DNA of 64,000 nt from positions 5,888,001 to 5,952,000 of the forward strand of contig OZ241867.1 in the NCBI GenBank assembly GCA_965203175.1, written 5' to 3'. Source of the stretch: Candidatus Latescibacterota bacterium. Lineage in GTDB: Bacteria > Latescibacterota > UBA2968 > UBA8231. Positions 46,777-49,123 of this stretch are shown one piece after another. The notes under the pieces were generated by a model, which was not told the origin of the DNA, did not search any database, and saw only the letters and a list, made by a program, of their open reading frames with translations. Position 1 is the stretch's first letter, and the number at the start of each line of letters is the position of its first letter. The translations under genes were made by a program, and so were the position numbers.

Positions 46777-47496
46777 ATGGCAATCGCTTGGGAAATCCCG
46801 TCGGGCTGGCCTCGGCTCAGCGACGATGAAATCCACGTCTGGTGCGTCGAGTTGGACGCGGCTGGTGAAGTGGCCGCACTCGCGGCTTGTCTGAGCGAGG
46901 AAGAGCGCGAGCGAGCGAGCGGCTTGCTCTCCGGCACCCATCAGCGGCGCTTTGTGGTGGCGCGGGGGATGCTGCGCCAGCTTCTGGGGCTATACCTCGA
47001 CCAAGATCCCGGCGCGGTGACTTTTTCGCGCGGCGCGCACGGCAAGCCCTTTCTGCAAGAAGGCGGGCCGCATTTCAACGTGTCCCACACCCACGAGCTA
47101 GCCCTGTATGCGATAGCGCGCGACCGCGAGGTCGGCGTTGATGCGGAGTGGATGCGCCCCCAAGTCGCGCACGAGCAAATTGCCGCGCGCTTCTTTTCGC
47201 TAGAGGAGCAGGAGGCACTGGCGCAGGTGGCGGACGAGGAGCGGCGGACGGCTTTTTACAACATCTGGACGCGCAAGGAAGCCTATGTCAAAGCGCGGGG
47301 CGACGGCATTGCCGCTGGCCTTGGCACCTTTGCGGTGTCGCTGGGAGCAGAGGCGGCGCTTTTGCACTCGGACGAGGGGCGGGACGAATTGGAGCGGTGG
47401 AAGTTAATCGCTTTGGAACCGGCGGACGGATACGTCGCGGCTTTGTGCGGGGCTGGCGTGGACTGGCAGGTGCAGGGTTGGCGCTGGCGGCCTTAG
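46777..47496 (+). CDS. Sfp-type 4'-phosphopantetheinyl transferase
   Basis: HGKP, FNVSHT, VGVDAE, WTRKEAYVKARG.G. Confidence 0.92.
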   Translation: MAIAWEIPSGWPRLSDDEIHVWCVELDAAGEVAALAACLSEEERERASGLLSGTHQRRFVVARGMLRQLLGLYLDQDPGAVTFSRGAHGKPFLQEGGPHFNVSHTHELALYAIARDREVGVDAEWMRPQVAHEQIAARFFSLEEQEALAQVADEERRTAFYNIWTRKEAYVKARGDGIAAGLGTFAVSLGAEAALLHSDEGRDELERWKLIALEPADGYVAALCGAGVDWQVQGWRWRP

Positions 47497-47542
47497 CAAG
47501 CGGCTCGCCTTCGTGCGCGCCGCTCCCCACATGGAACCGTCC

Positions 47543-47749
47543 TCATTGAAGCGTATCTCCAATGAGGCTGCTGCCGTCCGCGGCTATCACATAAAGCTCA
47601 GCATTCCCATCGCGCTCGGACACAAAGGCGATGCGTTGGCCGTCCGGAGACCACGCCAGATAACAGTCGTTGCCGGCGTCGTGCGTGAGGTTGGTTGCGA
47701 CATCGCAGCCGAAAACTAATCCTATGAGACAGCCGATCATTGCCTTCAT
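47543..47749 (-). pseudogene. Small lipoprotein-like ORF with one PD40/TolB repeat, probably a relic
   Basis: MKAMIGCLIGLVFGC lipobox; AWSPDGQRIAFVSERDGNAELYVIAADGS. One blade cannot form a propeller. The ATG abuts the IS-like element. Confidence 0.6.
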
Positions 47750-48314
47750 AGAAAATCTCCGTGAGACTGGCGGCTTGAGCCGTCAGAGGGATAGGGGCGG
47801 TTTTCACGACGGGCTGGCAACGCACGAGGCGTTGGTAGTCCCTGAGTGAGAGCCGATATATTTTGCCTATAACTCATCCCTTTAGTTATAGACAAAATTA
47901 ATTGGACTGCGTTCTGCATAGTAGCCATGCTTTTTAGTGCGCCCGAATACCCGCCGGATGCGTTACGAATAGCGGGTCGAGCGTCGCGCTTAGGCAAAAG
48001 GCACCCTCTTGTGAGGGGTAAAACAGTTTCAGTCCCACGATAGCGCGCCGCCCCACACGTCGATAGCACTGTATGCGTGGACCGTAGTGGCAAAGCAGGT
48101 CAGCCAGTAGGATTTGCCACTGCGAACGCCTCGGGAGCTTCTCCCCCAAGTGGCTGCTTGGTGTCAGCAGGCGTATAGTTTCGCCGAGTAGCATGATGTC
48201 GCATCCCGCGATGTGGTGCTGCATCCGAATACCTCCGGTTTAGCACGGTGCTCGCGCTAGAGGGGTTGGGAAAAGGCAGGGACAAGCCGACTACTTCAGT
48301 GGTCGGTGGCTGAC
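47750..48314 (+). mobile_element. Non-autonomous IS200/IS605-family element (no tnpA or tnpB)
   Basis: Left end: target TCAT (47746-49), guide GAGA (47763-66), hairpin CTGGCGGC-TTGA-GCCGTCAG. Right end: guide CAAG (48283-86), hairpin CCGACTAC-TTCA-GTGGTCGG, end TGAC (48311-14). No target duplication or terminal inverted repeats. Confidence 0.75.
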
Positions 48315-48338
48315 AGCGTCAACTCAATTGAATTTTTT
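47936..48338 (+). ncRNA. Candidate large structured RNA ending in an omegaRNA-like scaffold plus flank-derived guide
   Basis: Many stems with G-U wobbles on the + strand; GTCAGCCA (48099-106) is complementary to terminal TGGCTGAC; T6 tract 18 nt past the element end. The 5' boundary is a guess. Confidence 0.45.
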
Positions 48339-48373
48339 AGGCGTGCGCGCCAAAGACATCCACTGAGAGAGAA

Positions 48374-49123
48374 TCAGACGATCCGCTGCGTCACCACGCC
48401 GTGCAGATCCATCTCAAAGTCGATGTCCACAACCGGCGGCCGAGCGTAGTGCCAACAAACGCCGCCGCGCCGCGCCGCACCCATCGTCGGCAGGAGAATC
48501 TCTTCGAGGATTTCCGCTAAAGGATAGATGGTGTACACGTCAACCGCGTCAATCAAATCCCACGTTCCGCCCAAGCCCATAAGCCGCTCGCCCATAACCT
48601 GCGCCACATAAGCGGCCTTCTCGCGCATAGCAGCGGGCGACGTGTCGCCGGAGCGGATAATCCCCTCGGTCACGAGGAGCCCCTCCCGCAATTCGCCGGC
48701 ACCGGCCACGATCAGCGTTTTGCGGGCGATCTGATCGTTGGGAATCGCGTAGGAAAAGGCATACAGCGAAGGCACAGCCGGCGGATCGCACGCCGGCGCA
48801 ACATTCGTGCGCGCCACCGGATTGAGTTCGTCCACGTACAAACCCCACGCCTTCAGGACGGCGCAATACTCGCGGTTGAAGTCAATAAACCCCTGCATGG
48901 TAAAAGGCTCAGGCGAGCGCAGTTCCATCGCGCAGAGCGAGACTCGGTCGCAGCCTTCCGCCGCCAGATGCGCATCCACGCGCTCAAAGCCCTCGCGCCA
49001 AGGCAGCGGCTCGGCCAGCACAACGCGGACGATCTCCCAACCCGGCTCGGCGACGACGCCACAAGAATAGGGATCAATGCCCTGGAGAAAGCGATAGTGT
49101 CCTTTGGGATGTGCAATCAGCAT
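48374..49123 (-). CDS. CnbZ-like (2-amino-5-chloromuconate deaminase family) protein
   Basis: YRFL.GI.PYS.GV.A.PG.EI, CAMELRSPEPF, NPVARTNV.P, RPPV..I.FEMD. Confidence 0.7.
   Translation of the reverse strand: MLIAHPKGHYRFLQGIDPYSCGVVAEPGWEIVRVVLAEPLPWREGFERVDAHLAAEGCDRVSLCAMELRSPEPFTMQGFIDFNREYCAVLKAWGLYVDELNPVARTNVAPACDPPAVPSLYAFSYAIPNDQIARKTLIVAGAGELREGLLVTEGIIRSGDTSPAAMREKAAYVAQVMGERLMGLGGTWDLIDAVDVYTIYPLAEILEEILLPTMGAARRGGVCWHYARPPVVDIDFEMDLHGVVTQRIV

What the first reader, a model, noticed from the sequence alone, without database searches (positions are those of the whole stretch)
47936..48338. Candidate large orphan omegaRNA-like structured RNA: a mobile guide RNA without its nuclease
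Seen, on the + strand: stems ACCCGC/GCGGGT, CCCTC/GAGGG, CGTAGTGGCAAA/TTTGCCACTGCG, ACGCCT/AGGCGT enclosing GGGAG/CTCCC, and AGCATGATGTCGC/GCGATGTGGTGCT. There is long-range complementarity CGGATGC (47955)/GCATCCG (48221) and a direct repeat CCGAATACC (47943, 48225). Loop sequence GTCAGCCA (48099-106) is an 8-nt complement of the terminal TGGCTGAC, and a second GTCAGC lies at 48163. After the end come 18 nt (AGCGTCAACTCAATTGAA) and T6. Known: TnpB omegaRNAs derive from the right end, form a pseudoknot with the terminal bases and take their guide from flanking DNA. Inference: a stand-alone, apparently enlarged scaffold loaded by a TnpB-like protein in trans and targeting TCAT plus flank (the empty site), or a new ncRNA class travelling on IS ends.
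Basis: partly seen in the sequence, partly recalled or inferred. Interest (0 to 1): 0.85.

Follow-up and report, generated by a model that had tools for sequence, protein, structure and literature searches.

The report
Protein-less transposon carrying a guide-RNA gene
This is a small, gene-less copy of an IS200/IS605-type jumping element whose interior encodes a folded RNA related to the guide RNAs of the TnpB nucleases found elsewhere in the same genome, a kind of stand-alone guide RNA that has already been described.

Summary
The region lies in a 565-bp protein-less IS200/IS605 derivative (PATE-like), window 47750-48314. It sits directly after TTCAT, has left- and right-end hairpins, and makes no target duplication. 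A related strain's contig shows the empty site.

The 3' half (48123-48314) aligns by covariance model to the 3' end plus right end of all six intact "group A" tnpB genes of this genome. It also aligns to 16 tnpB-linked loci in relatives. This is where TnpB guide (omega) RNAs are encoded. The window copy has two extra hairpins. A helix between UGUCAGC (48162-48168) and the terminal GCUGAC(A) covaries and forms a pseudoknot.

The 5' half (47936-48122) also covaries but occurs only in protein-less copies.

Best reading (0.6): a stand-alone omega-RNA gene used in trans by group A TnpB against TTCAT plus flank. Transcription and TnpB binding are not shown.

Stand-alone omega RNAs and omega-RNA-bearing PATEs are already published, so this is a new member of a known kind. 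The orphan-specific 5' module is the only unexplained part.

The parts
47746..47749 (+). TCAT target / transposon-adjacent motif (TTCAT with 47745). On the other strand it is the ATG(A) start of the minus-strand PD40-repeat ORF 47543-47749.
   Evidence: Left flanks of 11 LE copies end in YCAT in 10 cases and CCCT in 1. Empty-site contig. PD40 Pfam match.
47750..48314 (+). Whole non-autonomous IS200/IS605-type element (PATE-like), 565 bp, with no tnpA or tnpB.
   Evidence: nhmmer homology spans it. A contig of a related strain joins 47751 to 48317 onward, so the boundary is ambiguous by the shared AG. No TnpB or TnpA match inside it.
47750..47918 (+). Left end (LE). Contains the DNA guide GTGAG (47761-65) and the hairpin CTGGCGGC-TTGA-GCCGTCAG (47767-86).
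   Evidence: Recurs at 10 other sites in the genome besides the window copy, including directly before tnpA+tnpB (4688038, 330597) and before group A tnpB (400319, 355021). The hairpin covaries between copies.
47855..47935 (+). AT-rich spacer with -10-like boxes and the motif AATTAATTGGAC. Possible promoter of the RNA (inferred).
   Evidence: TATATT/TATAAT-like boxes stand just upstream of the RNA in C363, G027, G049, G005 and G020. AATTAATTGGA is shared with the copy at 5140056 and with G005. The strict sigma-70 scan found none.
47936..48122 (+). 5' module of the RNA. P1 47950-54/47972-76; P2 47981-90/48042-51; P3 48004-08/48013-17; P5 48056-60/48075-79 with loop CGATAGCACTG; P4 48083-94/48113-24 with loop GTCAGCCA.
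   Evidence: Covariation covers P2-P5 (model R2 starts at 47976). P1 rests on direct comparison of copies. Found only in protein-less copies.
48123..48314 (+). 3' module, the omega-RNA-like scaffold. Helix 48126-31/48169-74; hairpins 48133-45 and 48146-61; hairpin A 48190-48220; branch B about 48232-48266; conserved single strand TGGGAAAAGGCAGGGACAAG.
   Evidence: Model R1 aligns it end to end with the 3' ends of group A tnpB genes. Covariation.
48162..48168 (+). UGUCAGC, the 5' strand of the pseudoknot helix that pairs with the terminal GCUGAC(A) at 48309-48315.
   Evidence: W has UGUCAGC/GCUGACA, group A has UGUCAAC/GUUGACA, and G005 has UGUAAGC/GCUUACA. The varying pair reads AU 21, GC 6, GU 2.
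48287..48306 (+). Right-end (RE) hairpin CCGACTAC-TTCA-GTGGTCGG, preceded by AGGGACAAGC and followed by TGGCTGAC (the cleavage motif ends at 48314).
   Evidence: Shared with the RE of group A tnpB elements, and the hairpin covaries.
48315..48332 (+). Flanking DNA that would supply the guide if the RNA reads through the boundary (AGCGTCAACTCAATTGAA). Inferred only.
   Evidence: The position follows the omega-RNA rule as described in PMC10691335. No RNA data cover it.

Best explanation
Window 47750-48314 is a 565-bp non-autonomous IS200/IS605-family element (PATE-like) that has kept only its two ends and an RNA gene on the + strand. It would be moved in trans by the genome's Y1 transposase TnpA, acting on the LE and RE hairpins and inserting after YCAT.

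Its interior would be transcribed from an internal promoter into an RNA of about 380 nt. The 3' 190 nt of that RNA are an omega-RNA scaffold of the same lineage as the one encoded at the 3' end of the genome's six group A tnpB genes. An internal UGUCAGC pairs with the last bases of the element to form a pseudoknot.

Read-through into the flank would give the guide AGCGUCAACUC... A group A TnpB made elsewhere in the genome would load this RNA. It would then cut the empty site (TTCAT + AGCGTCAACTC...) after excision, so that recombination restores the element.

Shown here: element anatomy, boundaries, homology, conserved structure and strand. Inferred: transcription, guide formation, TnpB loading, cleavage and the role of the 5' module.
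For: Element anatomy
- The LE is homologous to LEs that precede tnpA+tnpB and tnpB elsewhere in the genome.
- The RE motif AGGGACAAGC-hairpin-GTGGYTGAC is shared with group A tnpB elements.
- The empty site in a related strain joins TTCAT(AG) directly to CGTCAACTC, with no duplication.
- The target and the LE guide covary: TCAT with GTGAG, CCAT with GTGGG.

Homology of the 3' module
- Model R1, built from the 3' halves of three protein-less copies, matches 21 of 61 related genomes.
- In G000 it matches all six group A tnpB 3' ends (E 1e-10 to 2e-7).
- Of 22 hit loci examined, 16 overlap the 3' end of a group-A-like tnpB and 6 have no tnpB.

Structure and strand
- The pseudoknot helix covaries.
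- The enclosing helix also changes on both sides: ACGCCU/AGGCGU in W, AUGCCU/AGGCAU in C363, ACGCAU/AUGCGU in G027.
- Strand: G-U cells 80 against A-C cells 8 in the 3' module, and 18 against 8 in the 5' module.

Candidate partners and mobility
- The six group A TnpBs are full length (371-378 aa from the Met before the conserved N-terminal motif; that Met was not located for the sixth, tnpB_1226859). All six keep the GVDLG, E(D/E)L and HADxNAARNI motifs and the zinc-finger cysteines.
- Two of them (A4267, A318) sit behind TCAT, the same motif as here.
- Three near-identical protein-less copies with different flanks in G054 show recent mobility of this type.

Literature
- Stand-alone omega RNAs act in trans (PMC10691335 passage).
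- PATEs often encode omega RNAs (PMC10055086 passage).
Against: - No transcript evidence. I found no RNA data for this RNA.
- The strict promoter scan found no sigma-70 site.
- The scaffold differs from that of group A by two inserted hairpins (35 and 43 nt) and a swapped enclosing helix. Recognition by group A TnpB is therefore not assured.
- The 5' module has no counterpart at any tnpB locus searched.
- Protein-less copies also sit in genomes where no close group A TnpB was found with this query. G028 has no match. G005 has only a 115-aa fragment with a stop. G049 reaches only 27-29% identity. These assemblies are 94-95% complete.
- The G005 copy has lost its RE hairpin. Some copies may therefore be relics.
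- The single-sequence fold is no better than shuffles.
- Both covariation alignments were fitted to the tested structure, and the 5' one has only 6 sequences.
Confidence: 0.6

Rival explanations
1. Relic. This is an internally deleted IS whose tnpB was lost. The omega-RNA region and extra sequence persist by inertia, are not used by any TnpB, and the element is merely a passive PATE.
For: - The G005 copy lacks the RE hairpin.
- C356 has lost its RE and C353 its 3' half.
- G028 keeps a tnpB fragment beside the RNA.
- Several host genomes lack a close group A TnpB.
- There is no expression evidence.
Against: - Copies only 72-78% identical, and copies in a second family of the class (G049/G054), keep helices through compensatory changes in both modules.
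- Conserved single-stranded motifs are retained.
- There are three near-identical copies at different sites in G054.
- The insertion in the window is polymorphic between strains.
Confidence: 0.17
2. An independent non-coding RNA that hitch-hikes on IS ends and whose main job is not guiding TnpB. Examples: a decoy or regulator of TnpB/TnpA, or a 5' module with its own activity such as self-processing or stabilisation.
For: - The 5' module (about 190 nt) is conserved in structure.
- It is specific to protein-less copies.
- It has invariant single-stranded motifs: AAAGGCAC, TAAAAC.GTTT, CGATAGCACTG.
- It has no Rfam match.
Against: - The 3' module is plainly of omega-RNA lineage and keeps the guide-adjacent pseudoknot.
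- Nothing points to another partner.
- No known ribozyme model matches at E up to 10.
Confidence: 0.15
3. The conserved pairings act in single-stranded DNA during TnpA transposition rather than in RNA.
For: TnpA works on folded single-stranded ends. The LE and RE hairpins and their guides clearly serve that role.
Against: - About 300 nt of internal helices are not needed by this transposition mechanism (established knowledge of IS608).
- Other PATEs in the genome carry a different interior.
- G-U cells are many.
- The 3' module is homologous to the omega-RNA region of tnpB elements.
Confidence: 0.05
4. A small protein is encoded on the minus strand (ORFs 47934-48224, 96 aa; 47746-48093, 115 aa).
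For: Open frames exist on the minus strand in several copies.
Against: - No Pfam match.
- Similarity between copies appears in several frames on both strands and switches frame between copies, as DNA-level conservation gives.
- Copies differ by hairpin-sized indels.
Confidence: 0.02

Closest known systems
Stand-alone omega RNAs of OMEGA systems (reported for Ktedonobacter racemifer; cited in Altae-Tran et al. 2023 PNAS, PMC10691335, passages read)
   Same: A mobilised guide-RNA locus without effector or transposase, in a genome that also holds effector-bearing loci. The scaffold ends at the transposon end.
   Different: - The scaffold here has diverged strongly from the tnpB-linked version: two extra hairpins and a different enclosing helix.
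- It carries a 5' module of about 190 nt with no tnpB-linked counterpart.
- Activity in trans is not tested here.
- I did not read the 2021 primary paper.
PATE-like minimal IS200/IS605 elements encoding omega RNAs (Meers et al. 2023, PMC10055086, passages read)
   Same: LE + RE, no protein gene, and an omega RNA that would need a TnpB from another element.
   Different: A different phylum (a relative's copy, L061, is titled Candidatus Latescibacterota) and a different TnpB lineage. The RNA is larger. That paper's supplementary figures could not be seen, so the size range of their PATE RNAs is unknown to me.
Omega RNA of the genome's own group A TnpB elements (IS1341-like, tnpB only)
   Same: - AACGCC...UGUCARC...UAUAGUUUCG...AGGGACAAGC-RE hairpin-GUGGYUGAC.
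- A pseudoknot with the terminal bases.
- The TCAT motif in two of the six copies.
   Different: - The group A version lies inside the tnpB reading frame (it encodes ...HADYNAARNIRARALVNEPIVS...).
- It is 121-125 nt in the aligned part.
- The window RNA is non-coding, 193 nt in that part, and extended 5'.
IStrons (group I intron fused to IS605/IS607; Zedaveinyte et al. preprint 10.1101/2023.11.20.567912, passages read)
   Same: A structured RNA between the LE and an omega RNA at the RE. ORF-less minimal forms exist experimentally.
   Different: No group I intron model matches. The element lies antisense to, and upstream of, the adjacent gene rather than inside a gene in sense orientation. The last base is C, not G.

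Membership tests
IS200/IS605 non-autonomous element (PATE-like) | Sub-terminal imperfect hairpins at both ends, related to those of elements that encode TnpA/TnpB | tested here: met
   LE hairpin 47767-86 and RE hairpin 48287-306. LE homology to 10 other sites, including tnpA+tnpB elements. RE shared with group A tnpB elements.
IS200/IS605 non-autonomous element (PATE-like) | Insertion 3' of a short conserved motif, without target duplication or inverted repeats | tested here: met
   YCAT before 10 of 11 LE copies. The empty-site contig joins TTCAT(AG) to CGTCAACTC (one contig from an RNA library of a related strain, depth about 5).
IS200/IS605 non-autonomous element (PATE-like) | No protein-coding gene inside | tested here: met
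   No tnpA or tnpB profile match in the window. blastx against 13 TnpBs gives nothing better than E 0.63. Minus-strand ORFs have no Pfam match and no conserved frame.
IS200/IS605 non-autonomous element (PATE-like) | A Y1 transposase available in trans | tested here: met
   Two tnpA genes in the genome. Their elements end in GCTTAC rather than GCTGAC, so cross-mobilisation is inferred.
TnpB omega RNA | Encoded at the right end on the top strand, with the scaffold ending at the transposon boundary | tested here: met
   R1 alignment ends at 48314/15. Strand from G-U against A-C counts.
TnpB omega RNA | Homology to the 3' end/RE region of tnpB-bearing elements | tested here: met
   R1 hits 6 of 6 group A tnpB 3' ends in G000 and 16 tnpB-linked loci of 22 examined. 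This holds for the 3' module only. For the 5' module it is not met.
TnpB omega RNA | Pseudoknot involving the bases next to the guide | tested here: met
   The helix 48162-68 / 48309-15 covaries and lies inside the helix 48126-31/48169-74. Such a pseudoknot is described as widespread in the preprint passage read.
TnpB omega RNA | Transcribed, with a 3' extension into the flank that serves as guide | not testable with these tools
   Only assembled contigs of public runs could be laid, and they cannot show RNA ends.
TnpB omega RNA | Bound by TnpB and directs TAM-dependent DNA cleavage | not testable with these tools
   Needs experiment. The complex predictor takes proteins only.
Rfam families (HEARO, group I/II introns, known ribozymes and others) | Match to the family covariance model | tested here: not met
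   0 matches at gathering score in the window. Only chance-level hits (E 0.36 or worse), all at or left of 47878 and so outside the RNA. None at five other protein-less copies or at L002 and L022 within the element.
IStron (group I intron + IS605) | Group I catalytic core, and insertion in sense orientation inside a gene so that splicing restores it | tested here: not met
   No intron model match. The element is upstream of, and antisense to, the neighbouring ORF.

The most novel reading that the evidence does not exclude
The protein-less copies are not just leftover guide RNAs. They would be a separate RNA lineage that has evolved away from its tnpB-encoded ancestor. It gained two scaffold hairpins and a 190-nt structured 5' module with invariant single-stranded motifs. 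That module would do something the tnpB-linked RNA gets from its mRNA context or its protein, for example own-promoter expression with 5'-end definition or stabilisation, or recruitment of a different partner. On this reading the RNA can persist and spread even in genomes without a close cognate TnpB.
Probability: 0.2. Interest if true: 0.6.

Novelty: new member of a known kind. Interest (0 to 1): 0.33.

Why it matters
The finding adds a well-delimited example, supported by comparison of copies, of a stand-alone omega RNA on a PATE in an uncultured sponge-associated lineage (a relative's copy is titled Candidatus Latescibacterota).

- It gives exact boundaries, the TAM, candidate trans partners and a covarying guide-adjacent pseudoknot.
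- It shows what happens to an omega RNA once it is freed from the tnpB reading frame. The core and pseudoknot stay, while hairpins are added and the enclosing helix is re-wired.
- The orphan-specific 5' module is a concrete, testable oddity.
- For genome annotation, it explains a 620-bp "intergenic" region and several similar ones in this genome.

Tried and rejected
Checks that gave nothing
- Rfam at gathering score gave nothing, and at E up to 10 or 1 only chance-level hits outside the RNA.
- The single-sequence fold is not better than shuffles.
- blastx of 47750-48400 against the genome's 13 TnpB frames: the best hit is E 0.63 on the minus strand, so it was rejected.
- The strict promoter scan found 0 sites. 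The two terminator-like hits lie inside the RNA and are helices of the structure.

Collection scans
- Genome-contig scan for a 19-nt core gave 32 stretches. One was a true relative (L061, the same copy as G020). 29 came from one Marinifilum MAG. Two were chance.
- R1 matches the Marinifilum repeats only at E 0.035-1, and they had been picked by the pattern itself. Homology is therefore not claimed.
- Metagenome-contig scan with a two-block pattern gave 7 stretches. All lie in unrelated, mostly coding contexts and none is a relative.

5' module
- R2 over 61 genomes with strict filters matched only G000, G005 and G020 (3 of 61).
- With filters off on 21 chosen loci it added G027 (E 3e-4) and marginal partial hits in G049/G054 (E 0.28). 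It hit no tnpB locus.
- Rows dropped before the count: the two noise rows (L012, L004:154-236), the two partial G049/G054 rows, and the duplicate L015.

Public sequencing runs
- 20 of 24 listed runs hold part of the stretch. Six are RNA libraries with 0.07-0.10 of the sampled words.
- I laid four of them (X15, X16, X18, X19; all assembled contigs).
- No contig covers 47752-48260. One X15 contig (280 nt) overlaps 48261-48296 at 90-95% identity and runs on into sequence resembling branch B of another copy.
- This is no evidence for or against transcription.

Structural ideas considered and not supported
- Loop GTCAGCCA pairing with the terminus, the long-range CGGATGC/GCATCCG pairing, and the 9-nt repeat are not supported by other copies.
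- A pseudoknot partner about 440 nt upstream in group A (CAACCAC in the coding motif TNHC) was seen in 3 of 5 copies before the script stopped. It was dropped in favour of the UGUCAAC site.
- IStron and minus-strand protein readings were rejected (see rivals).

Tools
- The look-up of encoding contigs, structure prediction, fold search, complex prediction and the large protein searches were not used.
- Supplementary files of the papers were not opened. They may hold PATE and omega-RNA sizes that bear on the 'enlarged' claim.
Full report
OBSERVATION. On its own the 403-nt stretch does not fold better than shuffled sequence: -152.1 kcal/mol, z = -0.70, and 21 of 100 shuffles fold as well. No Rfam family matches, at gathering score over the whole window or at E up to 10 over 47750-48400. 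The case for structure therefore rests on comparison with related copies.

THE ELEMENT. nhmmer of 47750-48400 against the window's genome (G000, 6.58 Mb, one contig) shows that homology runs from 47752 to about 48316.
- One full-length copy lies at 362744-363281 (C363).
- Two partial copies lie at 355967-356447 (C356) and 352893-353168 (C353).
- The first 100-170 nt recur at seven further sites.
- Those sites include the positions directly upstream of tnpA+tnpB (4688038, 330597) and of tnpB alone (400319, 355021). This part is therefore an IS200/IS605 left end.
- The last 50 nt, AGGGACAAGC - hairpin - GTGGCTGAC, match the sequence after the stop codon of six closely related tnpB genes, which I call group A.
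- All 11 left-end copies follow YCAT, except one that follows CCCT.
- The motif covaries with a pentamer just before the left-end hairpin: TCAT with GTGAG, CCAT with GTGGG. This is what target recognition by a DNA guide, as in IS608, predicts.
- A 169-nt contig from an RNA library of a related strain joins window 47751 directly to CGTCAACTC (48317 onward). This is the empty site, TTCAT|AGCGTCAACTC.
- The element is thus 47750-48314 (565 bp), inserted without duplication.
- It contains no tnpA or tnpB. blastx against the genome's 13 TnpB frames gives nothing better than E 0.63.

THE 3' MODULE IS OF OMEGA-RNA LINEAGE. I built a covariance model (R1: 193 positions, 49 pairs) from the 3' halves of W (48123-48315), C363 and a copy in genome G020.
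- Over 61 related genomes it matched 21.
- G000 gave 12 matches: the three protein-less copies, all six group A tnpB 3' ends (E 1e-10 to 2e-7, aligned end to end over 121-125 nt), one tnpB-less remnant at 372128, and two matches to the RE hairpin only.
- Of 22 hit loci examined by tblastn, 16 overlap the last 35-77 nt of a group-A-like tnpB and 6 have no tnpB.
- The alignment shows a shared core: AACGCC, UGUCARC, UAUAGUUUCG, AGGGACAAGC, the RE hairpin and GUGGYUGAC. In group A this core lies partly in the codons for ...HADYNAARNIRARALVNEPIVS...
- The window RNA carries two additional hairpins: A at 48190-48220, and B at about 48232-48266.
- The segment UGUCAGC (48162-68) pairs with the terminal GCUGAC(A). 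Group A has UGUCAAC/GUUGACA, and the G005 copy has UGUAAGC/GCUUACA. The varying pair reads AU 21, GC 6, GU 2.
- In the protein-less copies this segment lies inside another helix, which also changes on both sides: ACGCCU/AGGCGU in W, AUGCCU/AGGCAU in C363, ACGCAU/AUGCGU in G027. The fold is therefore a pseudoknot next to the would-be guide.
- In group A the enclosing helix is a different one, GGCN/NGCC, which covaries too.
- Over the 29 aligned sequences, 94.1% of cells pair and 33 of 49 pairs change on both sides. The covariation score is 0.198, against 0.076 +/- 0.006 in shuffles (0 of 500) and 0.016-0.069 when partners are slid.

THE 5' MODULE. 47936-48122 forms P1, a 10-bp P2 that encloses the hairpin P3, P5 with the invariant loop CGATAGCACTG, and the long hairpin P4.
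- P2 has almost entirely different sequences in W, C363 and G020, yet pairs in each.
- A model of 47976-48124 (R2: 151 positions, 31 pairs) realigned six copies. 83.3% of cells pair and 18 of 31 pairs change on both sides. The score is 0.514 against 0.188 +/- 0.033 (0 of 500) and 0.05-0.13 slid.
- A profile HMM found this module only in protein-less copies. So did R2, both over 61 genomes with strict filters (3 of 61) and with filters off over 21 loci that included 13 tnpB loci.
- More distant protein-less copies in another family of the class (G049, and three near-identical copies in G054) keep the same order of elements and the motifs AAAGGCAC-hairpin-GTAAACGGTTT. They score only marginally with R2.

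STRAND AND CODING. G-U cells far outnumber A-C cells: 80 against 8 in the 3' module and 18 against 8 in the 5' module. The structure therefore belongs to the + strand, the strand of tnpB in full elements. Minus-strand ORFs of 96 and 115 aa have no Pfam match. Similarity between copies appears in several frames on both strands and switches frame, so coding is unlikely.

WHICH READER DETAILS FAIL.
- The loop GTCAGCCA (48099-106) is complementary to the terminus in W and C363, shifted in G020, and not complementary in G005, G027 or G049.
- CGGATGC has no counterpart in G020, G005 or G027, although GCATCCG is kept.
- The T6 lies in flank that differs at every copy.

PARTNERS.
- The six group A TnpBs are full length (371-378 aa from the Met before the conserved N-terminal motif; that Met was not located for the sixth, tnpB_1226859). 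All six keep the RuvC and zinc-finger motifs.
- Two of them sit behind TCAT.
- Two tnpA genes exist, in elements that end in GCTTAC.
- G020 also has three group A TnpBs at 69-79% identity.
- With this query G028 gave no match. G005 gave only a broken fragment. G027 gave 41-49% identity (one copy with a stop). G049 gave 27-29% identity.

EXPRESSION. No usable data. See Tried and rejected for what was laid.

WHAT IS KNOWN.
- Passages of Altae-Tran et al. 2023 (PMC10691335) state that stand-alone omega RNAs have been found which are mobilised yet lack an effector or transposase. [quoted passage not shown]
- Passages of Meers et al. 2023 (PMC10055086) report PATE-like elements without protein genes, and say that PATEs often encode omega RNAs that would need TnpB in trans.
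- Passages of the IStron preprint describe the omega-RNA pseudoknot as widespread.
- I saw only search listings and these passages, not whole texts or supplements.
- A search for PATEs + TnpB + guide RNA + IS605 found 4 papers (2 listed). Of these I read passages only of Meers et al.
- My searches turned up no description of an orphan-specific 5' extension. Such narrow searches cannot show that it is not in print.

MECHANISM AND VERDICT. The most likely reading (0.6) is a stand-alone omega-RNA gene on a PATE.
- TnpA moves the 565-bp element.
- The + strand RNA folds into the 5' module plus the omega scaffold.
- The RNA reads through 48314 to acquire the guide AGCGUCAACUC...
- A group A TnpB made elsewhere uses it to cut the TTCAT-flanked empty site, so that the element is copied back.

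Anatomy, boundaries, homology, structure conservation and strand are shown here. Transcription, loading and cleavage are inferred. This is a new member of a known kind. The one unexplained feature is the conserved 5' module, which is specific to the protein-less copies.

Noticed in passing
window 47740-47765, and the LE copies at G000 5140056, 4939970, 5446976, 355021: Read on the opposite strand, the target motif YCAT is ATGR, and the LE end carries GGAG or a GAG-containing stretch 8-9 nt before it. At 4 of 11 LE copies an ORF of 177-466 aa starts exactly at that ATG, two of them with signal-peptide-like starts. In the window a 68-aa PD40-repeat ORF does so. The element end may supply a ribosome-binding site, and perhaps a promoter, to the gene it lands in front of.
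   Followed up: partly
G000 4939966-4940404 (+), 5446980-5446543 (-), 5140059-5139580 (-): A second family of protein-less elements (about 440-480 bp) follows TCAT. Its RE is GGGTAAAGC-hairpin-GTGRCATTAC, with an internal GUAAUG that can pair with the terminal CAUUAC. The 3' part resembles the 3' ends of another tnpB lineage seen in G010, G011, G013 and G025 (GUAAUC/GAUUAC there). Stand-alone omega-like RNAs therefore seem to be a general feature of this genome.
   Followed up: partly
G000 352-364 kb (L002, L003, L004, L015): A cluster of mobile DNA: three copies of the protein-less element, a group A tnpB, a DNA methyltransferase-like ORF that starts at an LE, and a group II intron domain V/VI match (RF00029, 61.8 bits, L002 2488-2572).
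   Followed up: no
L035-L066 (Marinifilum sp. MAG contigs): 29 of the 32 stretches holding the 19-nt core GGAAAAGGCAGGGACAAGC come from one Marinifilum MAG. They belong to a repeat of about 130 nt that begins with GTCAAS and ends with CTTGAC, flanking a hairpin and the core. It may be a distant miniature relative in Bacteroidota. R1 scores it only E 0.035-1.
   Followed up: partly
window 47404-47749 (-): The PD40-repeat ORF next to the element is only 68 aa (PF07676, E 3.6e-10). Other minus-strand frames continue the region, so it may be a truncated or frameshifted gene.
   Followed up: no
L077 (G028:C1:3450648-3453858), locus positions 1394-1711: A copy of the 3' module with branch B lies directly after a 38-aa fragment of a group-C-like tnpB (aa 255-292, 71% identity) and an LE. 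It looks like an intermediate or recombinant between a tnpB element and the protein-less form.
   Followed up: no
window 47700-48450 in public runs: Runs labelled sponge metagenome are among those that hold the stretch. Several studies hold 0.85-0.99 of its sampled words. The organism appears to be sponge-associated. The insertion is absent from one related strain.
   Followed up: partly
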